A stretch of DNA of 63,458 nt. Origin: Candidatus Staskawiczbacteria bacterium (GTDB lineage Bacteria > Patescibacteriota > Minisyncoccia > Minisyncoccales > Staskawiczbacteraceae). A program made the translations under genes and the position numbers. This document shows, piece after piece, positions 1 through 60,658 of this stretch. Below the pieces are notes generated by a model. It had not been told where the DNA came from. It saw nothing but the letters and a program-made list of their open reading frames with translations, and made no database searches. Positions within the stretch are counted from its first letter, which is position 1, and each line of letters opens with the position of its first letter. The stretch lies in NCBI GenBank assembly GCA_026395215.1, contig JAPLZC010000012.1, positions 1 through 63,458 of the forward strand, read 5' to 3'.

Positions 1-3000
1 GATAGTCTCATCACTAGTGAAAGACAAAGTAACCTGGTTACCAACTTTGGCTTTGGTTGTAACTGAGTTGTCAGAGACAATAGAGACAGAAGAAAGTGTC
101 GGCGCAGTCCCAATACCTCCACTTCCTGTTGGATATTTGACAATTACAACTCCCGAACCTCCATTACCACCCTCTGCTGAAGCTCCGCCACCACCTCCAC
201 CACCACCGCCAAGTCCATCTGTTCCATTTACACCTGGTACGCCTGTACCTGAACCACCGCCACCTCCACCACCAGCACCACCATCTCCATACCCACCATT
301 CCAATTTCCTCCTCCACCACCACCAGCATATACAACACTACTTCCACTAATTGTATAAGTTCCACCATCGCCCCCATTATGAGCACCTCCCTGAGCTCCA
401 AGGCCACCTCCATATGTTCCTCCTGAAACTTGAGCCCCTCCACTACTATTTCCACCATTGCCTCCTAAAGCAACAATTGAACCAAAAGAAGAATTACCCC
501 CAACACCTCCCCAACCACCCGTACCACCAGCACCGACTATAACATCTATACTTCCACTGGCAGAATAAGAAGCATCATAATTCAAACTGCCTGCGCCTCC
601 TCCACCAGAGTTACCTCCACCGCCACCTCCACCAGCAACAACCAAAGCAGTAACACTACAGCTTTTAGCTGGAGCAAAGGTTCCGGCTCCGGTGAATGTG
701 TGTACGGTATAACCACCGTCATATGGCGTATCTGGACGAGGATTTAAACCACTTGAGTCTGTATATGTAATTGTTCCACCTGTTGCAGAACAGCCACCGT
801 TTGTGCCTGAGTTTGGAGTGCCAACTATGTTGCCGATAGTGTCTTTGACATTGGCTTGGGTAACAGTAATATAGTTACCAGCAGTGGTAACACCGTCTCC
901 CATTGCCTCGCTAAAAGTGACATCAACAGTCAAACCTGTCTGCACTGTCACAGCCGTGACAGTTGGAGCGGTGACGTCTAAAATAAAGTTGCCCATGTTT
1001 GTCCAATCAGAGGTTACTGAGCCATCGTTATTTTGTGCACACCAATAATATGTACCGCTACTTCCAATTGAGTCAGACGGCGTCCATGTGGTGGCATAAT
1101 TAGTATTGGCATCAGGTGCAGAAACGGGATCAGAAGTTCCGCTTCCATTTGATGCAAGACTTGTTGGCGAAGCAAGAATACAATCATCGGCTGACAAAGT
1201 ATCAATTCTGTAATTTGTTGTAGCTCCAGTAGTTCCAGTATCTGGGTCTGAAAAGTTTGCAGACAAAGTTGGTGTGGTATCTGTGGTAACAGAAGCGTTA
1301 GCCGGCGAAACCAAAGTCGGCACATTTGGCGCAGCGTTTGCGCCCGGTGTCAAATACCTTACAATAACAATTCCAGAACCACCGTTTCCACCATTATAAG
1401 CACCACCAGCACCATTTCCTCCGCCTCCACCTCCTCCACCTAAACCATCTGTTCCATTATTTCCTACTGAACTTAGTTTTCCATCTCCACCGCCACCCGA
1501 ACCTCCTGTTCCGCCTGAACCTGATAAATAAATTCCTCCACCACCACCTCCTGCATAATAAACATCAGAGCCACTTATAGTATAATTTAATCCTGATCCA
1601 CCATTTCCACCTTTAGCAGTTTCTCCAATTGCACCTGCTGTTCCTGCACCACCTCCACCACCACCACCATAATTATCTGTATTAACACCATCTCCTCCGC
1701 TATTTCCTTGGTCTGTTGTTCCGCTAGAACCAAATTTACAATCAGGAGTACCTCCTCCAATACCCTTACCTCCACCACCAGAACCACCTGTTATTGCAGC
1801 ATATGTTACATTATTTCCACCACCTCCTCCACTTCCCCCAACTGCATCTAAAGTTCCAAATGAGGAATTGGTTCCATCTCCTCTTGTATCTTCCCCGGCC
1901 ACTCCTCCGGCACCAACGACAACATCTGTTGATCCACTTACAGCATAAGAACTATTGTAAATTAATCCGCCGGCACCTCCTCCACCACCTTCTAAAGAAC
2001 CTCCAGATCCTCCGCCAGCTACAACCAAAACCTTAACGGAAGTGACGCCGATTGGCGGAGTGAATGATGTAGTTCCAACTGTTGTGTATGTACAAACAGT
2101 ATATAGAGGATCGTCAGTTGCGGTGGTGCAAGCAGATTGCCCCTCCGACCCCGCCCCATTATTATAAAGTGTCAAAATATCATCCGCCGTCAAAGCCGTG
2201 TCATAAATACGGCCGTCGTCCATTGAACCCTTCCAGTGACCAGAAGACCAAGGGGATAAACCAATATATAATGGACTATCCCCATTTATAAGAGCAGAAA
2301 ATGAACCGGCAGAATTATCTGTAGTAGTGAGAAGATTTGTATTGTCATACATTTTAATTCCAGTACTAGAAGTGCTTCCATCCCAAGTTGCAACAACATG
2401 ATGCCAACCACCATCACAAGCTGCTACACCATTATTCCCTGTTAGTTGTCTTCGCCCAATATATGCATTATTAGTTTGATCATAAATAATTGTTTCAAAC
2501 ATATTATCCCCATCATTTAAGCAATCAAACGCAAAATAATATTCCCTATTAGTGTTATCAGATTTATATTTACCCATTATAACCGAATAACCATTGCCTG
2601 ACCCATCATCTGTATTTTTTACCCACGCAGACAAAGTAAAACCTGTTGCCGGTGTTAAGCTATCTGAATCTGGAACAGTTACATAATCACTCGTTCCGTT
2701 GAAGCTTAAGGCTTTGCCGATTTTGGCGGTGGCTAGAAGGTCTGTGTTTTGTTGAGCGGTTCCTGTGTGTCCACCAACGCTGTCTGCCACTGTTTTATTT
2801 GTTGAATCTTCATTCATCTTGTAATGAGCCGCGAGGCCTGTTCCCAAAGCCTCCACCTCACTTTCAGTTCCTGCCCCACTATTATATAGAGAAGCAATTA
2901 CACTTGTATCTGTTCCACCAGAAGTAATATCAGAATTATAAATACGAAAATCATCCATTGAACCCTTGAAATAAGTTGAATTAGGAGAAAAATCACCATG

Positions 3001-6000
3001 TTCTTCGTGTCCAATTATCCAACCCTTATTACTATCTAAAGGTGCTGGAAGTGAAGTTTCACCATACGTTGGACTTTGTGCAACACCATTGTAATATACA
3101 TGAGCCATTCCTGAATAATAAGCTACAGTCATGTGCGTCCAAGTATTTATAGAAGGAGGACTAAAATATACATAACCAAATGATCCACCATTACCCCTAT
3201 TTGTAGCAATCACAAGATAAGTGGGACCCATATATGCTTCTATATCGTCTACATTTCCAGATCCTCTTGTAAAAAGAGAATTATAATCTGACAAAAGGGT
3301 AGGATATACCCAAGTTGCCAAAGTAAAATTATTCGTGAAATCAAGAGCTTCATTTTGAGGTATTGAAACATAATCACTGGTGCCGTTGAAAGTTAGGGCA
3401 CTGGCGATTTTAGAGGTAGTTATAAGATTTGTATTTTGTTGGGCTGTGCCGGTATTTGAACCAATGCTATCTGTAACCGTAGCTGAAGAAGCGCTGTCAT
3501 CATTCATTGTGTAATGAGCCACCAGCCCACTCCCCAAATCCGTCGGAGTCAAATATCGAACAATCACAACTCCAGAACCACCATCTCCACCAGTAGATGA
3601 TGAACCATGATTTCCGCCACCCCCACCACCACCGCCAAGTCCATCTGTTCCATTTGTTCCATTTACTGAAGAATCATTTCCTCCATTTCCTCCGCCACCA
3701 TTTCCACCATTTCCAACCGAACCACTTCTACAACCTCCGCCACCACCACCTGCATAATAAACATCAGAACCACTTATAGTATAATTTAATCCTGCTCCAC
3801 CATTTCCTGCCTGACCTGCCGCACCATTCGCACCAATAGCTCCCGATCCACCACCGCCTCCCGCAAAATAATCTGAAGAGTATACTCCTGCTCCTCCCCC
3901 ATAACCCTGTGCACTTGTTCCACTTCCGCCCGCTCTTTCATATCCACCATTACCGCCTCCACCAGAACCACCATCTCCACCAGCAACATCACCCGAAGAC
4001 CCTCCTCCTCCACCAACAGCCACCAAACTTCCAAAAGAAGAATTTTCTCCATTATTTATTGTTGTACTATAGGTTGAGTTAGTTAACCCTGTTCCACCTG
4101 CTCCAACAACAACATCTGTTGCTCCACTTACAGCATAAGAACTATTGTAAATTAATCCACCCGCTCCTCCACCACCTGCTCCAGCACCTGCTGCTCCACC
4201 CCCTCCACCTCCAGCGACAACCAAAACCTTAACGGAAGTGACGCCGGTTGGCGGGGTGAATGATGTGGTTCCAACTGCTGTGTATGTACAAACAGTATAT
4301 AGAGGATCGTCTGGCGCGGTTGCACAAACCGGGTCTACAATGTAGTCAATTTCAATATTGCCGGAGAATAATAAGTCATAGACGGCGGAGTTAGTGTAAT
4401 TTGGATAAATCTTGTAAGTGTTTTCGCCGTTGATGGCGAATTCACCAATGATATCGTTACCATTTTCGTTAAAGACGGTAATGGTTCCTGTACCTTTGGC
4501 ATAGATGGTCATATCATTTCCGGCGGTTAGGTTGTGTTCAAAGGTTGCTCTTATATAGTGAGTGTCGGGGATGGTCACCCAAACATTGTCTTGGGTAACT
4601 GTTTGCTCATAAACATCATTAACAATTTCTTTGTTGGCATCTAACTCAAATGCTTTTGAAATAAAAATAATTTCAAAGGTTTGTTCAGACAAGTGTGGGA
4701 CTGTCCATTCTACGTAGTCCAGTTTGCCGTTACCGTTGGTGTCGTATGCGTGGAAGGCAACTTCTTTATTGTCTTCATTAGTCCACTTAATTTTGATTTT
4801 GTTTTCTTGGCCAACTTTGAATATTTCTGGGATTTTTGTAGAAGCCAAAACATCAACAATTGGAGCGTTTTCGTTTGAGGCGGTAATGCGGGCTGTGCCT
4901 TCGCCAACAGGAGTAACCAAACCTGTATTGTCTACTACGGCAACTGCGGTGTTGTTTGACGCCCAGTTGACTACTGTCTCCATTGGCTGATTGTTTTGGT
5001 CTAAAGTGTTAGCAACTAATTGCTGAGTGCTTCCGCCAGCAGTTAAATTGGCTGTTAACGGAGTAATATTTATTTTTGTGAGAACCGGTGAAATTATTGC
5101 CGAAGAAATATCAGCCGCTAAAAAATGGGTAAAAGAAGCAATAGCGCGCACAAAACCGGAGATAAGCGAAGCCGCCGCATCAATTGGAGATACTTCTTCA
5201 ACTGGCGCGGGAATTTCTATAGTTGGAGTTTCCTCCACCGGAACAGGTGTCTCTGCCGGAGTCTCTACTGGTGCTGGCGCGACTTCCGGTGCCGGCGTTT
5301 CTTCAGGTGTAGGTGTAACTTCTGGCGCCTCGGGTGTAACATCAGTCGGTGGGATGTCCGACGTCCCACCACTCTCTACCGGTGCCGATGTTTCAGCCGG
5401 TGCTGGCACAACCTCCCGCCCTTCGGGGGCGAGGCTCGCCCCTTCGGGGGCGGCTGGTGCTGTATATATAGAAGGAGAAACTGTAATAATTGCCGGGGCT
5501 GTGCTGGTGACTGCAGGTCCCGAGCCGGGTACTTCATCGGGAGCTGAAACAGTAACAATTTTTCCGGTGTCTGTTTCTTGCTCGGTAATAACTGGAGCAG
5601 GTGTTTCATAGGTAACTTGCACATATGTCTCTTCGACAACCGGAGTCTCTTCGACAACCGGAGTCTCTTCGACAACCGGAGTCTCTTCGACAACCGGAGT
5701 CTCTTCGACAACCGGAGTCTCTTCGACGACCTGTTCAATCAAACCTGCCTGCGCAGTCAGGTCTACAACGGTTTCATCGGGGGTTGACGCTACTATGTTT
5801 TCTACAGCGTCTCCAAGATCGGCAAGCAAAGAACCAAAACCGTCGCTAACGCTGGCAAGAAATGAATTATTCTTTTGTTTTGATGGGACAACTGCTTCGG
5901 CTAATTGCTGTCTTTGGTTAAAAGATAATTGTTCTGTTTTTTTTGTTTGCAAAACTTCCTTCGCCTGTTCTGCGGAAATTTTTATAATTTTAATGTTGCT

Positions 6001-6363
6001 GGCATTTTTGGGAAGCACCAGCAAACTTTTGCCGGACTTAATGTCACTAATTTTAACTAACTTTGTCCAGGCAACAGAATTTCCATTGGCAACTATGTTT
6101 GTGTTTTGTTTGGTAACTGCCGTGTTAATTACAGCCAACTGGTTTATTTTATTTTGCGGAATAAAAAATGAGGCAACAACAAAAAGCAAAACAAAAATAG
6201 CCAAACCCTGATATGCAAGAAATGGCTTAAACGAAAAAGAATATTTTGAGTTTGCAAAAATGGTTACTTCTTTTTTGGCTTGGTTGCGTAAAGTTATTCC
6301 CCAGCGTAAACGCAACATTTTATATCGCAGAACAATTTTTTGCCAATAAGCAAAATTAATCAT
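1..6363 (-). CDS. giant cell-surface protein, partial (C-terminus beyond window start): N-terminal TM anchor, P/E/T/A-rich linker, Big_2-like Ig domain, ~180-aa module shared with 12531..17327, three glycine-rich domains (VLVVAGGGGGG...GSGVVIVRY), two LamG/concanavalin-like domains, Ig/FN3-like region
   Basis: ATG at 6363-6361 with an in-frame stop upstream at 6385-6387. I hand-checked many 60-nt lines of the minus frame and found no stops down to position 1. It is absent from the ORF track because its stop is off-window. N-terminus reads MINFAYWQK...GLAIFVLLFVVASFFI (TM). LamG-type motifs present (FNGTSDYV, GSMDD.RIY). Clear paralogy to the 1598-aa ORF. Confidence 0.8.
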   Translation of the reverse strand, partial: MINFAYWQKIVLRYKMLRLRWGITLRNQAKKEVTIFANSKYSFSFKPFLAYQGLAIFVLLFVVASFFIPQNKINQLAVINTAVTKQNTNIVANGNSVAWTKLVKISDIKSGKSLLVLPKNASNIKIIKISAEQAKEVLQTKKTEQLSFNQRQQLAEAVVPSKQKNNSFLASVSDGFGSLLADLGDAVENIVASTPDETVVDLTAQAGLIEQVVEETPVVEETPVVEETPVVEETPVVEETPVVEETYVQVTYETPAPVITEQETDTGKIVTVSAPDEVPGSGPAVTSTAPAIITVSPSIYTAPAAPEGASLAPEGREVVPAPAETSAPVESGGTSDIPPTDVTPEAPEVTPTPEETPAPEVAPAPVETPAETPVPVEETPTIEIPAPVEEVSPIDAAASLISGFVRAIASFTHFLAADISSAIISPVLTKINITPLTANLTAGGSTQQLVANTLDQNNQPMETVVNWASNNTAVAVVDNTGLVTPVGEGTARITASNENAPIVDVLASTKIPEIFKVGQENKIKIKWTNEDNKEVAFHAYDTNGNGKLDYVEWTVPHLSEQTFEIIFISKAFELDANKEIVNDVYEQTVTQDNVWVTIPDTHYIRATFEHNLTAGNDMTIYAKGTGTITVFNENGNDIIGEFAINGENTYKIYPNYTNSAVYDLLFSGNIEIDYIVDPVCATAPDDPLYTVCTYTAVGTTSFTPPTGVTSVKVLVVAGGGGGGAAGAGAGGGGAGGLIYNSSYAVSGATDVVVGAGGTGLTNSTYSTTINNGENSSFGSLVAVGGGGGSSGDVAGGDGGSGGGGNGGYERAGGSGTSAQGYGGGAGVYSSDYFAGGGGGSGAIGANGAAGQAGNGGAGLNYTISGSDVYYAGGGGGGCRSGSVGNGGNGGGGNGGNDSSVNGTNGTDGLGGGGGGGGNHGSSSTGGDGGSGVVIVRYLTPTDLGSGLVAHYTMNDDSASSATVTDSIGSNTGTAQQNTNLITTSKIASALTFNGTSDYVSIPQNEALDFTNNFTLATWVYPTLLSDYNSLFTRGSGNVDDIEAYMGPTYLVIATNRGNGGSFGYVYFSPPSINTWTHMTVAYYSGMAHVYYNGVAQSPTYGETSLPAPLDSNKGWIIGHEEHGDFSPNSTYFKGSMDDFRIYNSDITSGGTDTSVIASLYNSGAGTESEVEALGTGLAAHYKMNEDSTNKTVADSVGGHTGTAQQNTDLLATAKIGKALSFNGTSDYVTVPDSDSLTPATGFTLSAWVKNTDDGSGNGYSVIMGKYKSDNTNREYYFAFDCLNDGDNMFETIIYDQTNNAYIGRRQLTGNNGVAACDGGWHHVVATWDGSTSSTGIKMYDNTNLLTTTDNSAGSFSALINGDSPLYIGLSPWSSGHWKGSMDDGRIYDTALTADDILTLYNNGAGSEGQSACTTATDDPLYTVCTYTTVGTTSFTPPIGVTSVKVLVVAGGGSGGSLEGGGGGAGGLIYNSSYAVSGSTDVVVGAGGVAGEDTRGDGTNSSFGTLDAVGGSGGGGGNNVTYAAITGGSGGGGKGIGGGTPDCKFGSSGTTDQGNSGGDGVNTDNYGGGGGGGAGTAGAIGETAKGGNGGSGLNYTISGSDVYYAGGGGGGIYLSGSGGTGGSGGGGDGKLSSVGNNGTDGLGGGGGGGGNGAGGAYNGGNGGSGIVIVRYLTPGANAAPNVPTLVSPANASVTTDTTPTLSANFSDPDTGTTGATTNYRIDTLSADDCILASPTSLASNGSGTSDPVSAPDANTNYATTWTPSDSIGSSGTYYWCAQNNDGSVTSDWTNMGNFILDVTAPTVTAVTVQTGLTVDVTFSEAMGDGVTTAGNYITVTQANVKDTIGNIVGTPNSGTNGGCSATGGTITYTDSSGLNPRPDTPYDGGYTVHTFTGAGTFAPAKSCSVTALVVAGGGGGGGNSGGGGAGSLNYDASYSASGSIDVIVGAGGTGGWGGVGGNSSFGSIVALGGNGGNSSGGAQVSGGTYGGGLGAQGGAHNGGDGGTYTISGSSVVYAGGGGGGNWNGGYGDGGAGGGGGGGSGTGVPGVNGTDGLGGGGGGGGGASAEGGNGGSGVVIVKYPTGSGGIGTAPTLSSVSIVSDNSVTTKAKVGNQVTLSFTSDETI
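5348..5370. repeat. 23-nt GC-rich palindrome, 'SDIPP' family, in frame in giant protein
   Basis: GGTGGGATGTC-C-GACGTCCCACC. The coding (minus) strand gives GGTSDIPP. Copies also at 17469 and 18174. Confidence 0.85.
5416..5453. repeat. 38-nt double-hairpin GC-rich element, 'ASLAPEGRE' family, in frame
   Basis: CCGCCCTTCGGGGGCGAGGCTCGCCCCTTCGGGGGCGG encodes APEGASLAPEGR. Homologous copies in rpsF and ssb. Confidence 0.8.
5627..5730. repeat. 18-nt perfect tandem repeat (5 full copies + 1 partial) encoding (EETPVV)n
   Basis: gtctcttcgacaaccgga repeated head to tail. Unit length is a multiple of 3. Confidence 0.95.
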
Positions 6364-6507
6364 TTTTAAAAAATTTAATATAAACTATTATTAAATTATA
6401 GCACCGCCAGAGAACATTGCAATAGTGAATAACTATTAATTACCGCGAACAAAAACTTCGCTAACTATTGTAGCAAATTTTTAAAAAATATGTTATAACT
6501 TCTGTAT

Positions 6508-9196: not shown

Positions 9197-12016
9197 TCAA
9201 GATTTTATATATTGCCCGGTGTATGACTTTTTTACCTTTGCAACATCAGCAGGAGTTCCTTGTGCAACTATTTGGCCTCCCCCGCTTCCACCCTCAGGTC
9301 CAAGGTCAATCAACCAGTCGGCATTTTTAATTAAATCTATATTGTGTTCAATAACCAAAACTGTGTTGCCTTTGTCAACCAAGCCTCCCAAAACAGCAAT
9401 TAATTTTTTAATATCATCAAAATGCAAACCGGTTGTTGGTTCATCTAAAATATATAAAGTTTTGCCGGTGCCTTTTCGGGAAAGTTCTGTTGCCAATTTT
9501 ACCCTTTGCGCTTCCCCACCAGACAAAGAAGTTGCAGATTGCCCCAGTTGTACATAGGAAAGTCCAACCTCTTTTAAAGTTTTCATTTTTTCATAGAGTC
9601 CGGTAATATTCTTAAAAAATTCCAGTGCCTCTTCAACTGTCATATCTAAAACCTCGGCAATGTTTTTGTCTTTGTAAGTAACCTCCAAAACTTCTTTGCT
9701 ATACCTCTTTCCATGGCATTCCTCACATTCTACATAAATGTCCGGCAAGAAATACATTTCTACTTTTTTCTGTCCTTGTCCTTCACACGCTTCACATCTT
9801 CCACCTTTCACGTTAAAACTAAATCTGCCGGCTGAATATCCGCGTACTCTGGCCTCTTTTGTTTTTACAAAGATATCTCTTATCACTGAAAACGCTCCCG
9901 TATATGTTGCCGGATTACTTCTTGGAGTTCTACCAATTGGAGATTGGTCAACCAAAACCACTTTGTTTATATTTTCTATACCGGTTATTTCTTTGTGCTT
10001 TCCAGGTTCGTCTTTTGCGCGGTAAAACTTTTTTAACAAAAACTTTGCCAAAATATCATTTACAAGAGATGATTTCCCAGACCCCGAAACTCCGGTAACA
10101 CAAACAAATTCGCCCAGGGGTATTTGCACATCAATATTCTTAAGATTATGCTCACTCGCGCCAATTACGCTCAAATACTTTTGAGAGCCCTGGGCGCCCC
10201 GTCGAATGACGGGGTGAGTTTTCTTATCAGCCTTCACCGTCTTCCTCCCAGACAAATACTCTCCGGTTAGCGTATTACTTTTGAGAATCTGCTTATATGT
10301 TCCCTCAAAAACAACTTTTCCTCCGTGTTTTCCTGCTCCCGGCCCAATATCAACAATCCAATCAGACGCCTGCATTGTTTGAGGATCGTGTTCTACCACA
10401 ATAACCGTGTTTCCCAAATCCTTTAACTTAACCAATGTATCAATTAACTTGTGCTGATCTCTGGCATGTAATCCAATAGACGGCTCATCTAAAATATATA
10501 AAACGCCAGACAGTTTAGAACCAATTTGAGTTGCTAATCTTATCCTTTGTTCTTCTCCACCAGCCAATGTCCCAGCCTTTCTGGACAAAGTTAAGTAACT
10601 CAGACCAACATCAGTTAAAAACTGTGTCCTATCAATTATTTCTTTTATAATTGGCGCACAAACCTTTGTTTCTCCTGCATTTAGTTTTTCTGGTAATTTT
10701 GTGAATAATTCTTTTACTTTGTCCACCGGCATATCAACAACTTTATCAATAGATAAATCATTTACTGTTACTGCCAAAACTTCTGGCTTTAATCTTTTGC
10801 CGTTGCACTTTGGACAAATTTTAATAACCATATATTGCTCAATTTCTGCTCTTGTCCAGTCTGAATCTGTTTCGTGATATCTTTTTTCCAAGTTTGGAAT
10901 TACTCCCATAAATTCGGCGTCTCCATTTAAAATAATATCAACTATTTTTGCAGGCAAATCTTTTACTTCTTCATCTAAAGAAAACTTATATTTATCAGCT
11001 AACCCAGAAAGAATAGAATAATAATATCCTTGTCTGCCAACTTTGTGGCTGGCGCGAGACCATGGCCAAATAGCACCTTCGGCAATTGTTAATTTTTTAT
11101 TTGGAATAACCAATTCCGGGTCAACTTCTAACTTTTCTCCCAATCCAGTACATTCTGGGCAAGCTCCATAAGGATTATTAAATGAAAATAATCTTGGCTC
11201 TAACTCCGGCAAAGAAATCCCGCACATTTCACACGCGAAGTGTTCGCTGAAAACTAAATCATCTTTGTCTTTTCCGGCCACAATTACAATTCCCTTGCCT
11301 AAATGCAAAGCGGTTTCTAGAGAATCAACCAGTCGCGAACGATCTAAATCTTTTTCAAGAATTAAACGGTCCACAACAACTTCTATGTCGTGTTTTTTTT
11401 GCTTATCTAAATTTGCATTTAGCGATTCTTCAACTGGATAAATAACTCCGTCTATTCTTACTCTAACAAAACCTCCCCTTTGAATTTCTTCTAGAACTCC
11501 ACGATGCTCGCCCTTTTTTTCCCGGATCACCGGACCTAGAATCGTTAATTCGTATGGGCGCGTTCGTAGTTGCGCTTTTCGCATGCTTAAAACTTGGTCA
11601 ACAATTTGGTCAACTGTCTGGCGAGAAATTAACTTTCCACATTTTGGGCAATGCGGTTTACCTATACGGGCGTAAAGCAATCTTAAATAATCATATATTT
11701 CAGTAATAGTACCAACTGTGGACCTTGGGTTATGAGTAGATTTTCTTTGGTCAATTGAAATTGCAGGAGAAATTCCTTCTATTTTATCTACATCGGGTTT
11801 GTCCATTACACCCAAAAATTGTCTGGCGTAAGCTGACAAACTTTCAACATATCTGCGCTGTCCTTCTGCATATAACGTATCAAAAGCTAAAGATGATTTA
11901 CCAGAGCCAGAAAGCCCGGTAATTACAATCAACTTATTTTTAGGCAAATCCAAATCTATATTCTTTAAATTATGGACTCTTGCCCCGCGAATTTTTATGT
12001 AATTATCTATACTCAT
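9197..12016 (-). CDS. uvrA: excinuclease ABC subunit UvrA
   Basis: 939 aa. Two ABC modules ([23 protein letters not shown] signatures) and Cys4 zinc modules. Confidence 0.98.
10197..10214. repeat. GC-rich stem-loop, 'PVIRPGA' family, in frame in uvrA
   Basis: CCCCGTC-GAAT-GACGGGG, an 18-mer identical to 17797-17814 in uvrC. Encodes HPVIRRGA on the minus strand. Confidence 0.85.
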
Positions 12017-12530: not shown

Positions 12531-15500
12531 TTATATTTCAAACTTTTCGTTAATAATCCCCTTCTTTGAGACGTCGATTGTCTGTGAAGTGTGGACTAAA
12601 GAATACGAGCCATCTTTGTTCTTCTTCTCTATCCTAACATAATATTTACCGGGTGGGACAAGGCAATAATACTTGCCGTACTTGTCGGCGGACTTGGCGG
12701 TAATTTGTATGTTAGAATCTGGTGACATTACACGCACTATGGCAAAGGACAACGGGATGCCTGTTGCTTTGTCTGTTATGTTGCCAAAAACTTTTGGTTT
12801 TAGTCCTATGATTCTTAATAATAAAAGGAATAAATATGCAAAAATGGTAATTGTGTTGTATGGGTATGGGGCAAAGATATATGCTAGGGTGGCGACAAAA
12901 AGACCTACGGCGAAGAAGAGATCGGAGAATTTTCTTGTAGCTACGTCCCACTTAGAATAGAACTTCATTATGTTCTTGTCTTTCTTGGCAAACTCATTCC
13001 AGTCAAACTTAATTGGATCTAAGGGAATGTTTTTGGTAATCACCTCGTCTTGAGCCTTTATCTCAATGTTCTCGCCAAAGTACAAGTCTTTGTGGAGTTC
13101 GTCGTGTGTTTTGCCGGCAAGATTCTTTGATGGGAAGGTGTAGTTGGTTTTGTGGGCTTCTATTTGGTAAATGCCAGGACCTACTAAGAATCCAAACCTG
13201 CCATCTACATCTGTTATTGCAGAAGAAATAACCTGACCTTTAAGATCTTTTAGAACAACGTAAGCGGGGTCTAGGGGACGCTTTGTGACAGAGTCGTAAA
13301 CAGCACCCCATGGGACAACTCTCTTTTTCAAACCAAAGGCAGTGAGCAGAAGTCCTAACAACCTTAATGGAATCAAGAACATTTCTGAGAATGAGAACGG
13401 GACGGAAAACCCTGTTGCCATGGCTGCCACTACAATTCCTGTGGTGGAGACAGCCTTAGTTATTACCGAACCTTGAGGTGAGTTGATTGCGTTCTCTAAA
13501 ACTTTTACAGCTTCTTCTACCGGGTTCACAACTGGCGGTACAACTGGCGGTACAACTGGCGGTACAACTGGCGGTACAACTGGCGGTACAACTGGCGGTA
13601 CAACTGGCGGTACAACTGGCGGTACAACTGGCGGTACAACTGGCGGTACAACTACAACTGGCGGTACAACTGGCGGTACAACTGGCGGTACAACTGGCGG
13701 TACAACTGGCGGTACAACTGGCGGTACAACTGGCGGTACAACTGGCGGCAAAGTTGGTTGTGCTAAAAATATTGCTGAAATGGTGTGACCGCTGGAAATA
13801 CTACTAAATGTGTAGGTAGTTATTGCTCCTTCTGAAACATTATCAACTAACACGTCTTCAATTTTATAACCACTATTTGGGGTAATAGTATATATTTGGC
13901 TACTTCCAGAAACCAAAGATATTAAACCACTCGGGCTAATAGAACCATTTGCTCCGGCTGAGGCAGTAATTGTGTAATAAGTATCGCCTCCACTACCGCT
14001 ACCGGTAATAATTCCGGCAATGTTGGCAGACATAGCGTAGGTTGTATTACCGGCTATATCAACTGCCCTGTAACAAACCTTTGAGCCGTTGTCTGAGCCG
14101 TCTGTAAATGTTTGGTCAGCATAAGTGGCAAATGTGAGTGTGCCATCACAGGTTGAGTTTGCAATGTTGCTCATTGTTAGAGTGCCTTCACTAGTTGAAG
14201 CTGTGATTGTTTTGCTTCTAGTCCAAGCGGTGTCTGGGTTGACTATGGTGATAGTTGGCGCGACTGTATCTATTGTTATACTGTCAGAATAAGTTTGGCT
14301 GATATTGCCGGCGGTGTCTTTAAATTGGACATAGAGAGTTTTGGCACCATCGGAACCAAAATTATAGGCATCTGGTGTGTTGACATATGACGCCCAAGCT
14401 ATTTTTATATCAGTACAATTTGCTCCAGCAATTGCAGAATTTCCACAAAGTTGATACTGACTAGCATCATCGGTCGTCAAAGTAATAGCAGGAGAAGTGG
14501 TTGTGCTATAAGTTGCTCCATCGGCTAAAGTGATGGTACCGGTAGGAGGGGTGGTATCAGGACTTGCGCTATTATCTGCAATATACCAAACAGGACTGAT
14601 GCCAGATAAATATGGATAGCCATTATTTAAATCGGTTTGTCCTCCGGATATATCCCAGTTAGCTCCGCCGTACGCGTTAAAAGTATAAAGTTTCTTCATC
14701 TCTGCTGTGGTCTTTCCCACAACTCCTGCTCCTCCCGCGCTTGTTGACTTACCGGAAGTTTGATTGTCCCAAAAAGAATTTGAAACAGTTGTTACACCAC
14801 CTGAAACTAATCCAATTAATCCCCCCTGATTAGAACCAGCTCCACTTACATTTCCAGTTGAATAAGAATTATTTATTATTCCATTTGCACCATTACCAAC
14901 TAATCCTCCACCACTTCCACTACTAACTATTACATTTCCAGTAGCATATGAATTAGATATTATTGTAGTTGTAGCTGACATACCAAAGTTACCAACCAAA
15001 CCTCCTACCATCGTAGTACTATTTACAATTCCAGTAGCATAAGAATTAGATACTGCTCCATAACCATATCCAACCAAACCGCCTACACCTTGAGTCGTAC
15101 CAGTTACATTTTTTGTAGAATATGAATTACTGATTGTACCACCAACTTGATATCCCACTAATCCTCCTAAAGCAACACCTCCTGTTGCAATCCCTGTCGA
15201 ATAACAGTTATCTATCACTCCTGCATCTTGTTCTCCAACTAAACCTCCTTTCCCAAGACTACCTCCTCCAATAAGATTTCCAGTTGCATAAGAGTTAGAG
15301 ATTGTACCACTAACTTGATATCCCACTAATCCTCCAACCTTGCCGTTGCCATTTACGTCTCCAGTTATATAAGCGTTTGTAATTGTTCCAGCATTTTGCT
15401 GTCCAACCAAACCACCCACACGACTAGAACCAGTTACACTAATATTAATTAATCCAACATTAGAAATTGTCCCAGACAAAATGGCGAATAAACCAACGTT

Positions 15501-17390: not shown

Positions 17391-18671
17391 ATGGATAGAT
17401 TTAAGTTACTACCTAAATCAAAGCTCAACGAACTCCCCAAAACAAGCGGCGTTTATTGCTTTGCAGTCGGTGGGATGTCCGACATCCCACCGATTTATAT
17501 CGGCAAGGCCGTGAATATACAAAGCAGGGTTAAAAATCATTTCCAACAGCCTTCTTACCGAGATAATATATTTATAGACAAAGTTGAGAAAATTGGATAT
17601 TTTGAAACTGGCTCAGAAATTGAGGCTTTGCTTTTGGAAGCCAGCTTAATTAAAAAGCACCAACCAAGGTTTAATGTAGTCTGGAAGGACGATAAGAATT
17701 ATTTTTACGTGGCTATCGAGCAAGATAAAAACAAGATTCCGTATGTCTTTATTACACATAAGCCAAAAAAAATCCACCCGGTCATCCGACCGGGTGCCCC
17801 GTCGAATGACGGGGCAAAATCCCAGTATATCGGACCTTTTGTAGAAGGGACAGCTTTAAAAATGACCCTAAAGTTTTTAAGACGCGTATTCCCCTACTAC
17901 ACTTCTGCGAGGCATCCAAAGAGCAACTGCACCTGGTGCCATTTAGGACTTTGTCCCGGACCAAATCACGATTTGAAGGCGTACAAAAAAAATATAAAAA
18001 AACTAGTTTTAATTCTTCAAGGGAAAAGCAAAACTGTTTTAAATTCCCTGAAACGGGAGATGGCTACTTTTTCTGAACAAAACAAGTTTGAGGAGGCCGG
18101 CAAAGTACGCGATGAAATCGCCAGCTTACAACAAGTCATGTCCCACTCCAGCGTCATTACCCAAGCAAAGTCCGGTGGGGTGTCGGACATCCCACCACTC
18201 TCTGGCAGGGTTGAGTGTTATGATGTGTCTAACATACAGGGCAAACAAGCCACCGGTTCTATGATTGCTTTTACAGATGGAAAACCAGATAAGAGCCAAT
18301 ATAGAAAGTTTAAAATAAAAATGGAAAACACGCCCAATGACATAGCTATGTTAAAAGAAATTATAACCAGACGACTTAACCACGTTAAGTGGCCTTATCC
18401 GGAAGTTATGTTGATAGACGGTGGAAAAGCTCAGTTGAATGCGGCAATAGAAATTAAAAATTATTTTAAAAATTTAAAAATTAGAAATTTAAAAATTATC
18501 TCCATTGCCAAGGGCAGACAAGAATTATTTATTGAGGGGTGCAAGGAACCAATACCACTAAAAAATCTTCCACAAGAAACTTATAACCTGATAAAAAATT
18601 TAGATGACGAAGCTCACAGATTTGCCATAACTTACCATAAAAAATTGAGAAGAAAGGAATTGTTGCAATAG
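17391..18671 (+). CDS. uvrC: excinuclease ABC subunit UvrC, short form (no C-terminal HhH2)
   Basis: GIY-YIG (GVYCF...YIGKA.N...R), UVR motif (KFEEAGKVRDEIASLQ), RNase H-like endonuclease domain (YDVSNIQG...YRKFKIK...IDGGKAQL). Ends right after EAHRFAITYHKKLR. Confidence 0.93.
   Translation: MDRFKLLPKSKLNELPKTSGVYCFAVGGMSDIPPIYIGKAVNIQSRVKNHFQQPSYRDNIFIDKVEKIGYFETGSEIEALLLEASLIKKHQPRFNVVWKDDKNYFYVAIEQDKNKIPYVFITHKPKKIHPVIRPGAPSNDGAKSQYIGPFVEGTALKMTLKFLRRVFPYYTSARHPKSNCTWCHLGLCPGPNHDLKAYKKNIKKLVLILQGKSKTVLNSLKREMATFSEQNKFEEAGKVRDEIASLQQVMSHSSVITQAKSGGVSDIPPLSGRVECYDVSNIQGKQATGSMIAFTDGKPDKSQYRKFKIKMENTPNDIAMLKEIITRRLNHVKWPYPEVMLIDGGKAQLNAAIEIKNYFKNLKIRNLKIISIAKGRQELFIEGCKEPIPLKNLPQETYNLIKNLDDEAHRFAITYHKKLRRKELLQ
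17469..17491. repeat. 23-nt perfect palindrome, 'SDIPP' family, in frame in GIY-YIG domain
   Basis: GGTGGGATGTC-C-GACATCCCACC encodes GGMSDIPP. Confidence 0.9.
17777..17815. repeat. tandem pair of GC-rich stem-loops, 'PVIRPGA' family, in frame
   Basis: CCCGGTC-ATCC-GACCGGG followed by GCCCCGTC-GAAT-GACGGGGC encodes HPVIRPGAPSNDGA. Confidence 0.9.
18174..18196. repeat. 23-nt palindrome, 'SDIPP' family, in frame
   Basis: GGTGGGGTGTC-G-GACATCCCACC encodes GGVSDIPP. Flanks are shared with the copy at 5348. Confidence 0.9.
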
Positions 18672-21927: not shown

Positions 21928-22010
21928 GCGGACGTGGCGAAATGGCAGACGCATACGCTTCAGGTGCGTACGACCTCACGGTCATGAGGGTTCAACTCCC
22001 TCCGTCCGCA
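21928..22010 (+). tRNA. tRNA-Leu (anticodon CAG), class II
   Basis: Hand-folded: acceptor GCGGACG/CGTCCGC, anticodon stem TACGC/GCGTA with loop TTCAGGT, variable arm GACC-TCAC-GGTC, T arm GAGGG-TTCAACT-CCCTC, discriminator A. Confidence 0.9.
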
Positions 22011-22020
22011 CAAAGGGTTC

Positions 22021-43602: not shown

Positions 43603-44346
43603 TTAAGTTATAAGTTCGTTAGCTTTTCCATAATAACTGTCCAAAGCAGCATTTTTCAAATAGTTCACTACATCATTTTTAAATTGCTGGTCTTTCAAAA
43701 ACGGCTTTAAAGCCTTAAATGCAAAGGCCGTTGCCGTCCTTTCACGCCTTATCATTTCAGCAACATCGTAATTCTTTTTAGATAAATCAAATTTTAGTCT
43801 GTTTTCGTTTGCCAGATCAATTGTATGCCCGATCTCATGCAACATAATAATAATTGCCCTTGGAGTAACAATGTCGCCTAAAACCTTTATAACCTTATCT
43901 TTTTCGTCAGTCGCACCGTGTATTGTGCCTGGCTCCGGACAAAATAATACTTTATAACCGTTAGGCAAAACATCTAACAAATTAACATCTGCCCCATCAA
44001 TATTAAAAAACATTTGATCTAAGTTTCTCCAATTACCGATGTCATTTTGTTGCTTTTTGTGAGGTATTTTTGATAAATATTCTTCTATCCCGTCTCTTTT
44101 ATCTTCATCCACTCGGGAATATACAAATCTGAAATTTATATTATCATTATTAATCCTTACTTCCCCTTCATCATTATATTTTACTTCTGCCAGTGGCTTG
44201 TCCAACCTTCCCAAAGATTCTTTTATCGGTGTTGCTCTCTCGAGCTCATCCAAAGAAATAAAATCTTCTGCAGGGTCCAATAACCTCCTAAGATAATCAT
44301 CGGGGTTTAGCAAATTATTCGATTCTCTTCGTGGTATGTCTGACAT
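43603..44346 (-). CDS. hypothetical protein with HExxH (HEIGH) metallopeptidase-like motif
   Basis: IIIMLHEIGHTIDL. No further family recognised. Confidence 0.45.
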   Translation of the reverse strand: MSDIPRRESNNLLNPDDYLRRLLDPAEDFISLDELERATPIKESLGRLDKPLAEVKYNDEGEVRINNDNINFRFVYSRVDEDKRDGIEEYLSKIPHKKQQNDIGNWRNLDQMFFNIDGADVNLLDVLPNGYKVLFCPEPGTIHGATDEKDKVIKVLGDIVTPRAIIIMLHEIGHTIDLANENRLKFDLSKKNYDVAEMIRRERTATAFAFKALKPFLKDQQFKNDVVNYLKNAALDSYYGKANELIT

Positions 44347-44348
44347 AA

Positions 44349-46980
<2,632 letters not shown>

Positions 46981-59914: not shown

Positions 59915-60658
59915 GTGGATAAGTCAAAAGACTTTTTATTAGATTTATTGTTCCCAAAGTTCTGTTTAGGATGTAAAAAAGAAGGCACATATTTATGCGA
60001 TGATTGCCGGGGGCTTTTGGATATTTCAGAATTTGGTTATTGCCTATGCGAAGCAAATGGACAGCCCAAGCGCCTTTTGGAAGGCCACGTGGGGAAATGT
60101 AGTATTTGCTCTAGAAAAGAATTGGCGGGACTTTATTTTGCGCTTTCCTACAAGGAGAAGACACTGACAAGAAATTTAATTTATCAATTTAAATACAAAC
60201 CGTATTTAAAAGACCTGGCAAAAACTTTAGCCAGCATAATTGTAGAACATCTTGTGATTTCAGGAAAAAACACAAATGACATTTGGGAAAACAGTGTTTT
60301 GGTTCCCGTACCTTTGGATAGTAAAAAAATAAAAGACCGCGGGTACAATCAATCTGAAGAATTGGCAAAAGAATTGTCTGTAGTTCTAAATGTTCCAGTT
60401 GTTTTAAATGTTCTTGTAAAAATAAAACAAACCGATTCTCAAAAAGGCCTGTCAAAAACCGAAAGAGAGAAAAATCTCCAAGGCGCCTTCGCCATCAAAA
60501 GTTGTTCGACGTCGGACGTCGAACAACTTTCCGGGAAAAAAGTCTTTCTAGTTGATGACGTCTACACCACCGGTTCCACAATGACTGAGTGTGCCAAAAC
60601 CCTTAAAACCGGCGGCGCCAAACAAGTTTGGGGAATTTGCCTGGCCCGCGAAGGGTAA
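59915..60658 (+). CDS. comF: ComF family protein (ComFC-type phosphoribosyltransferase-like)
   Basis: N-terminal Cys4 (CLGC...CDDC) and C-terminal VFLVDDVYTTGST PRTase loop. GTG start. Confidence 0.85.
   Translation: MDKSKDFLLDLLFPKFCLGCKKEGTYLCDDCRGLLDISEFGYCLCEANGQPKRLLEGHVGKCSICSRKELAGLYFALSYKEKTLTRNLIYQFKYKPYLKDLAKTLASIIVEHLVISGKNTNDIWENSVLVPVPLDSKKIKDRGYNQSEELAKELSVVLNVPVVLNVLVKIKQTDSQKGLSKTEREKNLQGAFAIKSCSTSDVEQLSGKKVFLVDDVYTTGSTMTECAKTLKTGGAKQVWGICLAREG
60498..60530. repeat. 33-nt perfect palindrome (16-bp arms) in frame in comF
   Basis: AAAGTTGTTCGACGTC-G-GACGTCGAACAACTTT = 11 codons (KSCSTSDVEQL), immediately before the PRTase loop. Confidence 0.9.

What the first reader, a model, noticed from the sequence alone, without database searches (positions are those of the whole stretch)
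5348..5370. 23-nt self-complementary 'SDIPP' element encodes the same peptide from either strand
Copies lie at 5348-5370 (minus-strand gene) and at 17469-17491 and 18174-18196 (plus-strand gene). All translate to GG(T/M/V)SDIPP. Because the 23-mer is its own reverse complement (11-bp arms, 1-nt centre), insertion in either orientation gives the same ORF-compatible peptide. Flanks are also shared: AGTC(C)GGTGGG...CCCACCACTCTC at 5345-5376 and 18171-18202. Each variant copy has a single arm mismatch. Orientation-independent coding could explain why such an element is tolerated in ORFs.
Basis: seen in the sequence. Interest (0 to 1): 0.75.

Follow-up and report, generated by a model that had tools for sequence, protein, structure and literature searches.

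The report
Mobile hairpin repeat inside bacterial genes
The 23-base palindrome is real and is the core of a small hairpin repeat (a REP element) that, in related uncultured CPR bacteria, brackets and sits inside a hairpin-cutting tyrosine transposase gene. The copies in this window sit in frame in protein loops, which is a new variant of a known kind of element rather than a new coding trick.

Summary
Three near-perfect 23-nt palindromes lie at 5348-5370, 17469-17491 and 18174-18196, against 0.00 expected by chance. Each is read as GG(T/M/V)SDIPP: two in uvrC, one in a giant minus-strand surface-protein gene.

Coding the same peptide from either strand follows trivially from palindromy. None of the three frames contains a stop, and relatives use all three frames in real genes.

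The element is the core of a roughly 31-35 nt hairpin, AAAGTC-GGTGGG-RYGTC-S-GACRY-CCCACC-GACTTT, found about 60 times in Candidatus Staskawiczbacteria genomes and metagenomes. There it lies just 5', just 3' and inside a syntenic gene for a Y1/HUH transposase. That protein matches Pfam Y1_Tnp, and its best structural match is the E. coli REP-associated transposase (4ER8). Paralogous transposases carry different palindromes in the same three places.

So this is a REP/RAYT ("REPtron") system. The window copies are in-frame loop insertions, as already reported for some REPs and for Rickettsia palindromic elements.

Three features are unusual: most copies are intragenic, with many in DNA-repair and competence genes; the transposase ORF holds its own REP; and orthologous sites carry different, fully compensated palindromes. 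A fourth, divergent copy lies at 60498-60530. No transposase gene is in the window, and transposase action is inferred.

The parts
5344..5373 (.). REP copy 1. The core is 5348-5370, with an AGT/ACT stem extension and one bulged C. It is read on the minus strand as GGTSDIPP in the Pro/Thr/Glu-rich linker of a giant surface protein.
   Evidence: The DNA hairpin has dG -9.5 kcal/mol on the + strand and -7.8 on the minus strand.
17465..17495 (.). REP copy 2. The core is 17469-17491 and the perfect 13+1+13 palindrome is 17467-17493. It is read as GGMSDIPP between the GVY and YIG strands of the UvrC GIY-YIG domain.
   Evidence: Hairpin dG is -14 kcal/mol, z about -6. The insert lies in the loop between strands E20-25 and E36-40 of the UvrC model. 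Most orthologues lack this element at this position; L090 and L071 carry it.
18169..18199 (.). REP copy 3. The core is 18174-18196. It is read as GGVSDIPP in the linker just before the UvrC RNase H-like endonuclease domain (RVECYD).
   Evidence: It lies in or next to the low-confidence coil 256-266 of the UvrC model. The orthologous site carries this or other palindrome variants in L011, L085, L044, L098, L099, L100 and L101.
60498..60530 (.). Fourth, divergent copy: a perfect 16+1+16 palindrome, AAAGT-TGTTCG-ACGTCGGACGT-CGAACA-ACTTT. It is read as SCSTSDVEQ in the ComF-like gene, at exactly the codon position where relatives carry the GGTGGG-type element.
   Evidence: Hairpin dG is -16.5 kcal/mol.
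17391..18671 (+). uvrC (426 aa), the host gene of copies 2 and 3. It also hosts two palindromes of a second family at 17775-17817.
   Evidence: Pfam GIY-YIG, UVR and UvrC_RNaseH_dom; orthologue alignment A2; structure model.
1..6369 (-). 5' part of a giant surface-protein gene with Big_2 and Gly_rich_2 domains, the host of copy 1. The ORF runs off the window start, and the start codon (6369 or 6324) is uncertain.
59915..60658 (+). ComF-like gene (double zinc ribbon plus phosphoribosyltransferase domain), the host of the fourth copy.
44330..44346 (-). Possible half copy. The minus strand reads ATGTCAGACATACCACG, matching the right part of the element at 15 of 17 bases. It supplies the first codons (MSDIPR) of ORF 43603-44346. 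This assignment is tentative.
   Evidence: My rough estimate of a chance match of this quality in the window is about 0.01; it was not computed by a tool.

Best explanation
The 23-mer is the core of a REP-type hairpin repeat with full form about AAAGTC-GGTGGG-RYGTC-S-GACRY-CCCACC-GACTTT. It belongs to a REP/RAYT system (a "REPtron") of Candidatus Staskawiczbacteria, which are CPR/Patescibacteria.

In relatives the same palindrome lies immediately 5' of, immediately 3' of, and in frame inside a syntenic gene for a Y1 (HUH) tyrosine transposase. The protein's fold is closest to the E. coli REP-associated transposase.

Inferred mechanism, by analogy with TnpA-REP and the IS200/IS605 transposases: the enzyme binds the hairpin that the palindrome forms in single-stranded DNA. 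It cuts and rejoins at or near the hairpin, and so copies it to new places or overwrites old copies.

The element is short, GC-rich and stop-free in all six readings. Insertions that restore the frame and land in surface loops or linkers therefore survive. The window's copies are such survivors:
- the beta-hairpin loop of the UvrC GIY-YIG domain;
- the linker before the UvrC endonuclease domain;
- a Pro/Thr-rich linker of a surface protein;
- a loop before the PRPP-binding motif of a ComF-like protein.

Shown here: the repeat family, its palindromy with compensatory changes, its association and co-variation with the transposase gene, and its in-frame loop location. Inferred: catalysis by the transposase, current mobility, and how the arms stay perfectly complementary.
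For: Repeat family:
- The 23-mer core pattern, with its two variable pair positions and centre left as N (GGTGGGNNGTCNGACNNCCCACC), matches 7, 8, 3 and 1 times in four Staskawiczbacteria MAGs. It also occurs in about 45 low-GC metagenome contigs. This gives 64 non-redundant copies.

Transposase link:
- In L048 a 244-aa ORF (2880-3614, minus strand) has copies at 3664-3686 (5'), 2847-2869 (3') and 3389-3411 (inside, read as SVGRPTSH).
- It matches Pfam Y1_Tnp at 32.9 bits against a cut-off of 23.
- The AF2 model's best PDB match is 4ER8, the REP-associated tyrosine transposase bound to a REP hairpin (E 1.4e-4, TMt 0.62). ISDra2 and IS608 TnpA follow.
- His98, His100 and Tyr157 are invariant in 42 homologues.
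- The same three-copy layout is seen or partly seen in L001, L006, L038, L043, L047, L055, L060, L066 and L073.
- The gene sits between the same MBL-fold and S1-domain genes in L006, L048, L055, L060 and L096; shorter loci show one of the two neighbours.

Co-variation of transposase and repeat:
- Paralogous or more distant transposases carry other palindromes in these positions. All three positions (5', inside, 3') are filled in L044 (GGGCAACGTC-S-GACGTTGCCC), L090 (GCGGAGAACGGGTCTCCGC), L093 (TTGCAGACGT-ATG-ACGTCTGCAA) and L095 (TACGGACGTC-S-GACGTCCGTA, with a variant GTACTGACGTC-type copy 3').
- In L094 (GGGCGACGTC type) copies were found 5' and inside only. In L096 (TTACAGACGTC type) the copy inside is degenerate and the 3' palindrome is different.
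- Within genomes, all 7 copies of MAG JAPLZF01 have a GACGT right arm, while none of the 8 in MHPK01 do.

Palindromy is maintained:
- In 63 copies there are 75 cells with changes on both sides, against 34 +/- 8 in shuffles (0 of 500).
- At the orthologous UvrC and ComF sites, 11 of 17 pairs show compensatory changes (0 of 500).

Loop location:
- The UvrC model and orthologue alignment place both window inserts in loops or linkers.
- The REP-coded residues 69-79 of the transposase have pLDDT below 50.

Precedent:
- RAYT genes flanked by co-evolving REPs were described by Nunvar 2010 (PMC2817692).
- Intragenic REPs, many in replication and repair genes, were described by Di Nocera 2013 (PMC3733652).
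Against: - No transposase gene lies in the 63-kb window (tblastn), so the link for this particular genome is by homology with relatives.
- The NCBIfam RAYT equivalog model scores only 30 bits against a cut-off of 80.
- The element lacks the GT(A/G)G head that defines classical REPs.
- Copy number is low: at most 8 pattern-matching copies (18 fixed bases) per MAG, against tens to hundreds in classical REP families.
- I found no filled-versus-empty site polymorphism between near-identical genomes, so recent transposition is not shown.
- Copies at orthologous sites in proteins only about 65-70% identical are old. That also fits a host-maintained function.
- The copies were found with a pattern that fixes 18 of 23 bases. 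Conservation figures for the core are therefore inflated by ascertainment.
Confidence: 0.8

Rival explanations
1. Host-function hairpin. The palindromes are kept by selection for a cellular role, such as an RNA or DNA structure, a protein-binding site or a terminator. The transposase association would then be secondary.
For: Perfect palindromy is kept at the same orthologous site in species whose UvrC proteins are only 63-71% identical, with fully compensated arm changes up to 19+1+19. Some copies lie at gene ends between A-runs and T-runs, like bidirectional terminators (for example L002 4803 and L064). One copy overlaps the -35 region upstream of the transposase gene.
Against: Most copies sit in the middle of unrelated ORFs and are read in different frames. 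Mismatched copies show G.T on the mRNA-sense strand 3 times and on the antisense strand 4 times, by my reading, so RNA-level selection is not indicated. Every transposase paralogue has its own matching palindrome, which a general host function does not predict.
Confidence: 0.12
2. Ends of an active IS200/IS605-type insertion sequence. The gene plus its two palindromes is itself the mobile unit, and solo palindromes are its debris or PATE-like derivatives.
For: The gene has a Y1_Tnp domain, is bracketed by hairpins and is annotated 'transposase' by the sources. In L060 the cassette is inverted relative to its neighbours.
Against: The gene sits at the same chromosomal place (MBL gene - transposase - S1 gene) in L006, L048, L055, L060 and L096, whose proteins are only 70-84% identical to L048's. 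No locus or MAG showed duplicate identical copies. The two ends are the same palindrome rather than distinct left and right ends. A half-site search found no full-length element in the window.
Confidence: 0.06
3. Protein motif. GGxSDIPP is a peptide selected for its own function and the palindromy is incidental.
For: The same peptide appears in three places in the window, and Gly/Ser/Asp/Pro peptides are common in linkers.
Against: Synonymous positions are conserved and the arms co-vary. The same DNA is read as VGxxTSH or WDVxxPT in other genes, and in two frames at one orthologous TsaD site. 15 of 64 copies flank the transposase gene outside its ORF.
Confidence: 0.01
4. DNA uptake signal sequence of naturally competent CPR bacteria.
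For: Several host genes are competence genes (ComEA-like, ComF-like, DprA). Uptake sequences in Neisseria also occur as inverted pairs; this point is from my own knowledge.
Against: Density is about 3 per 63 kb and at most 8 pattern-matching copies per MAG, which is orders of magnitude below known uptake sequences. The sequence differs between close relatives and tracks the transposase.
Confidence: 0.01

Closest known systems
REP/RAYT systems (REPtrons) of Proteobacteria: repetitive extragenic palindromes with their REP-associated tyrosine transposase (Nunvar 2010, PMC2817692; Bertels 2017, PMC5581495; structure 4ER8, PMC3479197)
   Same: A single Y1/HUH transposase gene is bracketed by the same short GC-rich palindrome that is dispersed elsewhere in the genome. 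Transposase and palindrome co-vary. Palindromy is kept by compensatory changes. The gene sits at a conserved chromosomal position. The best structural match is 4ER8.
   Different: - The host phylum is different (CPR/Patescibacteria).
- There is no GT(A/G)G head.
- The hairpins are near-perfect with a 1-3 nt loop and a conserved apex ACGTC-S-GACGT.
- Copy number is low.
- About 88% of copies outside the transposase locus (36 of 41) lie inside long ORFs rather than between genes.
- A cognate copy sits inside the transposase ORF itself.
- The NCBIfam RAYT model is not reached.
Intragenic GTAG- and CGTC-tagged REPs (Di Nocera et al. 2013, PMC3733652)
   Same: Short REP hairpins are inserted in frame in genes for known proteins, often in replication and repair genes (uvrA and uvrB there; uvrC, recG, ligA and others here). 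They sometimes occur twice in one gene and sometimes as adjacent pairs.
   Different: There the intragenic copies are a minority of large extragenic families. Here they are the majority. The tags and stem-loop geometry also differ. The second family in this window (9-bp stem, 4-nt loop, CCSGTC) looks closer to the CGTC type, but I did not test this.
Rickettsia palindromic elements (RPEs; Ogata et al. 2000, from my own knowledge and as cited in PMC3733652)
   Same: Palindromic repeats are inserted in frame into protein-coding genes and tolerated as extra surface peptides.
   Different: RPE-1-type elements are about 100-150 bp and add 30-50 residues (size from my own knowledge). No dedicated transposase is known for them. 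Here the element adds about 8-11 residues and has an associated transposase.
IS200/IS605 insertion sequences and their hairpin-only derivatives (PATEs)
   Same: They use the same enzyme superfamily, which recognises DNA hairpins in single-stranded DNA (2XM3, 2VJV and related entries among the structural matches).
   Different: Those are multi-copy mobile units with distinct left and right ends. Here the gene is syntenic and apparently single-copy, and the two flanking hairpins are the same palindrome.

Membership tests
REP/RAYT (REPtron) | The associated gene encodes a Y1 HUH transposase of the IS200-like fold | tested here: met
   Pfam PF01797 scores 32.9 bits against a cut-off of 23. The Foldseek top match is 4ER8, followed by ISDra2 and IS608 TnpA.
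REP/RAYT (REPtron) | HUH motif and catalytic tyrosine are conserved | tested here: met
   H98, H100 and Y157 (within YVHxNL) are invariant in the 42-sequence alignment A3.
REP/RAYT (REPtron) | Reaches the curated RAYT sequence model (NCBIfam NF047646 equivalog) | tested here: not met
   30 bits against a cut-off of 80. Part of the shortfall comes from a long N-terminal insertion that includes the REP-coded loop.
REP/RAYT (REPtron) | The gene is flanked on both sides by the repeat | tested here: met
   L048, L001, L006, L043, L055, L060 and others. Other variants in L044, L090, L093 and L095 show the same.
REP/RAYT (REPtron) | Repeat and transposase co-vary | tested here: met
   Seven different transposase-palindrome pairings were found. 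Within-MAG uniformity is 7 of 7 against 0 of 8 for the GACGT arm.
REP/RAYT (REPtron) | The same repeat is dispersed elsewhere in the same genome | tested here: met
   In MAG JAPLZF01, three copies are at the transposase locus and four lie on other stretches (L004, L011, L028, L034).
REP/RAYT (REPtron) | GT(A/G)G head at the foot of the hairpin | tested here: not met
   The flank consensus is AAGTC / GACTT. GTAG occurs only sporadically, for example at the L090 3' copy and at L043 1026.
REP/RAYT (REPtron) | High copy number, mostly extragenic | tested here: not met
   There are at most 8 pattern-matching copies (18 fixed bases) per MAG. 36 of the 41 copies outside the transposase locus lie in ORFs of at least 130 codons. 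Copy number is a lower bound because only this fixed pattern was scanned.
REP/RAYT (REPtron) | Single-copy, vertically inherited transposase gene | tested here: inconclusive
   Conserved MBL-transposase-S1 synteny is seen in L006, L048, L055, L060 and L096, with partial support from shorter loci. Copies per complete genome could not be counted. L044 holds two paralogues at about 55% identity, and the one examined (571-1290) has its own palindrome.
REP/RAYT (REPtron) | Cognate transposase present in the genome that the window comes from | not testable with these tools
   There is none in the 63-kb window, and the rest of the genome is not available. The nearest relative's contig, L090, has a paralogue 6 kb from uvrC, but that paralogue carries a different palindrome.
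REP/RAYT (REPtron) | The transposase binds and cleaves the hairpin in single-stranded DNA | not testable with these tools
   This needs biochemistry.
Rickettsia palindromic elements | In-frame insertion in functional genes | tested here: met
Rickettsia palindromic elements | Length of about 100-150 bp and sequence relatedness to the RPE families | tested here: not met
   The element is 23-35 nt. No sequence comparison with RPEs was run; the size mismatch alone excludes membership.
IS200/IS605 insertion sequence | Several near-identical copies of the whole unit per genome, with different left and right ends | tested here: not met
   One locus per MAG among the hits, a syntenic position, and identical palindromes at both ends.

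The most novel reading that the evidence does not exclude
REPs lodged in essential genes may be continuously rewritten to match the genome's current transposase-specific hairpin. This could happen by site-specific replacement or homing into old REP sites, or by hairpin-templated correction of one arm against the other.

Under this reading an orthologous insertion keeps perfect symmetry while its sequence turns over. The copy inside the transposase ORF would be the enzyme's own regulatory or recognition target. The system would preferentially occupy DNA-repair, replication and competence genes. That would make this CPR clade a natural system for seeing how RAYTs actually act on REPs, which is still unsettled.
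Probability: 0.3. Interest if true: 0.75.

Novelty: new variant of a known kind. Interest (0 to 1): 0.55.

Why it matters
REP/RAYT systems have been studied almost entirely in Proteobacteria, as extragenic repeats. How the transposase spreads or maintains them remains unclear.

In this streamlined CPR lineage the same kind of system lives mostly inside genes, including the transposase gene itself. Orthologous insertion sites in UvrC, ComF and TsaD carry different but perfectly compensated hairpins. That gives dated, site-by-site snapshots of REP turnover.

The data also repeat, in a distant phylum, the unexplained excess of intragenic REPs in replication and repair genes.

There are practical consequences too. 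These inserts break domain matches: the Pfam GIY-YIG hit in UvrC starts only after the insert. They also add variable loops to conserved proteins, so annotators and phylogeneticists working on CPR genomes should mask them.

Tried and rejected
- **Rfam scan of the window.** Only two tRNAs reached the gathering threshold, and nothing matched at the palindromes.
- **Full-length insertion sequence with these 11-bp ends.** A half-site search found only the three palindromes plus three one-mismatch singletons. The singletons lie 2.5-17 kb apart and were not examined further.
- **Transposase in the window.** tblastn gave no hit.
- **Viral contigs.** There was no match to the pattern.
- **RNA-level selection.** In the mismatched copies the G.T-forming strand is the mRNA sense strand in 3 cases and the antisense strand in 4 (my reading). 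There is no preference.
- **Centre base (C or G) as an orientation marker.** It is mixed even within single transposase loci and 36 G: 26 C overall, so it carries no signal.
- **"Decayed" copies at UvrC site B.** My first reading of peptides such as GATSDVAP and ARTSDVRA was wrong. The DNA shows each is a different perfect palindrome.
- **Frame-2 call for L059.** The 267-codon ORF is antisense. The real gene is AlkD-like (Pfam 134.9 bits) and reads the element in frame 1.
- **Stop-free composition as a selected property.** For a 70% GC 23-mer I estimate the chance of no stop in any frame at roughly two in three, so it is unremarkable. This is my own estimate, not a tool result.
- **Literature.** Searches found no paper in the library that links REPs or RAYTs with CPR/Patescibacteria.
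Full report
**1. The observation**

- Site 2 (17469-17491) is a perfect 11+1+11 palindrome, and the perfect part extends to 13+1+13 at 17467-17493.
- Sites 1 and 3 each carry one transition mismatch between the arms.

A search allowing three mismatches finds only these three sites, against 0.00 expected in dinucleotide shuffles. Allowing five mismatches adds nothing.

Sites 2 and 3 lie in the + strand ORF 17391-18671. This is UvrC, with Pfam GIY-YIG, UVR and UvrC_RNaseH_dom. They read GGMSDIPP and GGVSDIPP.

Site 1 lies in a minus-strand ORF of more than 2100 codons that runs off the window start, so the ORF list did not show it. It encodes a Big_2/Gly-rich surface protein, and the element reads GGTSDIPP inside a Pro/Thr/Glu-rich linker.

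All three frames of the 23-mer are open: GGxSDxPP, VGxxTSH and WDVxxPT.

**2. It is a repeat family of one bacterial lineage**

I scanned one genome per species with the pattern GGTGGGNNGTCNGACNNCCCACC. It matched 7, 8, 3 and 1 times in four Candidatus Staskawiczbacteria MAGs. There were also scattered single hits in high-GC genomes, which look like chance, and a separate family in one Saprospiraceae MAG.

The metagenome scan added about 45 low-GC contigs. After removing duplicates there are 64 copies.

Both variable pair positions in the core co-vary:
- Position 7-17 is A-T 44 times, G-C 15 times, G.T twice and mismatched twice.
- Position 8-16 is T-A 24 times, C-G 21 times, T.G 13 times and mismatched 5 times.

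The palindrome usually continues 4-5 bp into flanks that also co-vary: AGTC/GACT, AGTT/AACT, AGCT/AGCT, AAGC/GCTT and GATT/AATC.

Over the whole helix there are 75 cells with changes on both sides, against 34 +/- 8 in shuffles (0 of 500). Slid controls are far lower.

As single-stranded DNA the window copies fold at -7 to -14 kcal/mol.

**3. What it belongs to**

Several loci hold three copies spaced about 540 and 275 bp apart. In L048 these are:
- one just upstream of a 244-aa ORF on the minus strand (2880-3614);
- one just downstream of it;
- one inside it, in frame, read as SVGRPTSH.

The evidence on that protein is as follows:
- It matches Pfam Y1_Tnp (IS200-like transposase) above threshold.
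- It matches the NCBIfam REP-associated tyrosine transposase model, but below that model's strict cut-off.
- An AlphaFold model built on 42 homologues has mean pLDDT 75.5.
- The model's best PDB match is 4ER8, the E. coli REP-associated tyrosine transposase bound to a REP hairpin. The ISDra2 and IS608 transposases follow.
- The HUH histidines and the tyrosine of YVHxNL are invariant.
- The REP-coded residues 69-79 are the least confident part of the model, as expected for a tolerated loop.

tblastn finds this gene at all the three-copy loci. In L006, L048, L055, L060 and L096 it sits between the same MBL-fold gene and S1-domain gene, and shorter loci show one of the two neighbours. This argues for vertical inheritance at a fixed place, not for a hopping insertion sequence.

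More distant members of the family number 1152 homologues, and those that carry a source name are all from Patescibacteria. They carry other palindromes in the same positions:

| Locus | Palindrome |
|---|---|
| L044 | AGTC-GGGCAACGTC-S-GACGTTGCCC-GACT |
| L090 | GCGGAGA-ACGGG-TCTCCGC |
| L093 | TTGCAGACGT-ATG-ACGTCTGCAA |
| L094 | GGGCGACGTC-S-GACGTCGCCC |
| L095 | TACGGACGTC-S-GACGTCCGTA |
| L096 | TTACAGACGTC-G-GACGTCTGTAA |

L044, L090, L093 and L095 have a copy 5', inside and 3'. In L094 copies were found 5' and inside only. In L096 the copy inside is degenerate and the 3' palindrome is a different one.

A gene for a Y1 transposase bracketed by a co-evolving palindrome that is also dispersed in the genome is the published definition of a RAYT with its REPs (Nunvar 2010, PMC2817692; Bertels 2017, PMC5581495). 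The combined unit has been called a REPtron (PMC3733652).

**4. Where the dispersed copies sit**

The 64 copies divide as follows:
- 15 flank the transposase gene.
- 8 are inside it.
- 36 lie well inside other ORFs of at least 130 codons.
- 5 are in short or no ORFs.

So about 88% of the copies away from the transposase locus (36 of 41) are intragenic. From general knowledge, that is roughly the coding density of such genomes. These REPs therefore do not avoid genes.

Host genes confirmed by Pfam or clear orthology:
- UvrC (two sites)
- a ComF-like phosphoribosyltransferase
- TsaD
- RecG
- NAD-dependent DNA ligase
- DprA
- a ComEA-like protein
- RNase HII
- an AlkD-like DNA alkylation repair protein
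- enolase
- YchF
- a DUF4015 protein
- giant surface proteins

Eight of these thirteen act on DNA. Di Nocera et al. noted the same unexplained bias for proteobacterial REPs. My count is post hoc and has not been tested against gene content.

**5. Reading frames**

By copy, the non-transposase ORFs use frames 0, 1 and 2 in the ratio 28:6:2. One frame-2 call (L059) is an antisense ORF, and the real AlkD-like gene reads the element in frame 1.

By my count of independent sites the ratio is about 12-17 : 5-6 : 1.
- Frame 1 is used in enolase, TsaD, AlkD, the transposase, and the partner copies of tandem pairs in RecG and LigA.
- Frame 2 is used in YchF.

The orthologous TsaD site is read in frame 1 in four species and frame 0 in a fifth. 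The switch comes from one-base differences on either side of the element.

The DNA is therefore what is conserved, not the peptide. The excess of the Gly/Ser/Asp/Pro frame is real. It cannot be due to stop codons. It most likely reflects which peptides loops tolerate, which is my inference.

**6. The window copies are loop insertions**

In the alignment of 42 UvrC orthologues, most have a short turn between GVY and IYIGKA. The window protein has AVGGMSDIPP there, and other orthologues carry other inserts at the same spot.

The UvrC model places residues 26-35 between strands 20-25 and 36-40. It places the second element in or next to the low-confidence coil 256-266, just before the endonuclease domain.

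Site A is shared with the closest relative L090 and with L071.

**7. Orthologous sites keep perfect symmetry while changing sequence**

At UvrC site B, always before (T/S)L(N/G/E)KI..(I/V)ECYD, different species carry different palindromes:

| Locus | Palindrome at UvrC site B |
|---|---|
| L011, L085 | AAAGTC-GGTGGG-ACGTC-S-GACGT-CCCACC-GACTTT (17+1+17, perfect) |
| L099 | CCAAAGTT-GGTGCG-ACGTC-C-GACGT-CGCACC-AACTTTGG (19+1+19, perfect) |
| L100 | AAAGAC-GCACGG-ACGTC-C-GACGT-CCGTGC-GTCTTT (17+1+17, perfect) |
| L098 | TC-GGGCT-ACGTC-C-GACGT-AGCCC-GA (12+1+12, perfect) |

In the ComF-like gene, relatives L013, L064, L086 and L091 have the GGTGGG-type element. It sits at exactly the codons where the window has AAAGT-TGTTCG-ACGTCGGACGT-CGAACA-ACTTT at 60498-60530. 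This is therefore a fourth, divergent copy in the window.

On these nine sequences, 11 of 17 pairs show compensatory changes, with 0 of 500 shuffles reaching that value.

Within a genome the variants are uniform. All 7 copies in MAG JAPLZF01 have a GACGT arm, and none of the 8 in MHPK01 do.

Either the arms are corrected against each other and selected to fit the resident transposase, or old copies are overwritten by the current variant. I could not decide between these.

**8. Mechanism, and what is inferred**

By analogy with TnpA-REP and the IS200/IS605 enzymes, the transposase should bind the hairpin in single-stranded DNA and cut and rejoin at or near it. Those enzymes' complexes with DNA hairpins are the structural matches.

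The conserved apex ACGTC-S-GACGT, combined with variable basal stems that track the enzyme, suggests the apex is the common catalytic or contact site and the stem gives specificity.

None of this is shown here. No transposase gene is in the window, and I found no empty-versus-filled polymorphism.

**9. Comparison and verdict**

The finding is real and is explained by a known kind of system: REP/RAYT, with intragenic REPs already described in PMC3733652 and with Rickettsia palindromic elements as a looser analogue.

It is a new variant in five respects:
- a new phylum, with no paper in the searched library linking REPs or RAYTs to CPR bacteria;
- no GTAG head;
- mostly intragenic copies;
- a cognate REP inside the transposase ORF across the clade;
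- orthologous sites with fully compensated turnover.

Noticed in passing
window 10195-10216, 17775-17796, 17796-17817, 44594-44615 (weaker neighbour at 44575), 49564-49585; also L068 1098: A second family of in-gene GC-rich palindromes, CRCCCSGTC-NNNN-GACSGGGYG, with a 9-bp stem and 4-nt loop. It is read as (H/N)PVIR(P/R)G in three different genes on both strands, as APSNDGA next to it in uvrC, and in another frame (PGRMTG) in a fourth gene. This is the same behaviour as the SDIPP element. No transposase link was sought.
   Followed up: partly
window 44330-44346 (minus strand): ATGTCAGACATACCACG matches the right part of the element at 15 of 17 bases. It provides the start codon and first residues (MSDIPR) of ORF 43603-44346, directly after the stop of the upstream gene. 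It may be a truncated copy that donated a start codon.
   Followed up: partly
L009, L019-L021, L023, L029, L032, L033 (Saprospiraceae MAG CAZHLB01, GC 51%): Eight contigs carry long palindromes of the form (GGTGATTT)n-GGTGGGACGTC-N-GACGTCCCACC-(AAATCACC)n. The 23-nt core is the same as in the CPR element but sits in a different phylum and context, and four of the eight copies lie at contig ends. No transposase homologue is in the stretches held.
   Followed up: partly
L060 7246-8059, compared with L048, L006 and L055: The transposase cassette between its two flanking palindromes is inverted relative to the conserved MBL-fold and S1-domain neighbours. This would be expected from recombination between the flanking hairpins.
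   Followed up: no
Host genes across loci (L002, L017, L025, L059, L068, L076 and the window): Eight of thirteen non-transposase host genes are DNA repair, replication or competence genes: UvrC, RecG, LigA, DprA, ComEA-like, ComF-like, RNase HII and AlkD-like. This echoes an unexplained observation for proteobacterial REPs (PMC3733652). It was not tested against gene content or length.
   Followed up: partly
L002 284-330, L017 5490-5538, L025 5239-5289, L101 site B: Adjacent pairs of the element, 3-5 nt apart (about 15 nt in L101), lie inside the RecG gene (L017), the LigA gene (L025), an unidentified 229-codon ORF (L002) and the UvrC gene (L101). The two members are read in different frames, for example VGCPTPHHAGGVSDTPP in LigA.
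   Followed up: no
window 22020-22062: Two adjacent GC-rich hairpins (CGCCCAGTGATGAACACTGGGCG and GCCAGGTGTTAATCACCTGGC) lie directly after tRNA-Leu (21928-22011). They are intergenic and may be terminators or another repeat.
   Followed up: no
window 34108-34129 and 34729-34750: The same 22-nt palindrome, TTTTTCGGCTCGAGCCAAAAAA, occurs on both sides of ORF 34135-34710. It looks like a bidirectional terminator.
   Followed up: no
UvrC orthologue alignment A2; L098 1285-1308: UvrC orthologues of this clade range from 402 to 487 aa because of lineage-specific inserts at a few hot spots, such as GGPASGW, SLRGA..ATKQS and PNPKPYALSP. At least GGPASG is encoded by another GC-rich hairpin (GCCAAAGGCGGACCAGCCTCTGGC).
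   Followed up: partly
window 1-6369 (minus) and 12531-17327 (minus): Two paralogous giant surface-protein genes share N-terminal modules. The second has a long (VPP/VVPP)n tract. Only the first carries the element, and a homologue in L040 carries it at a different place.
   Followed up: no
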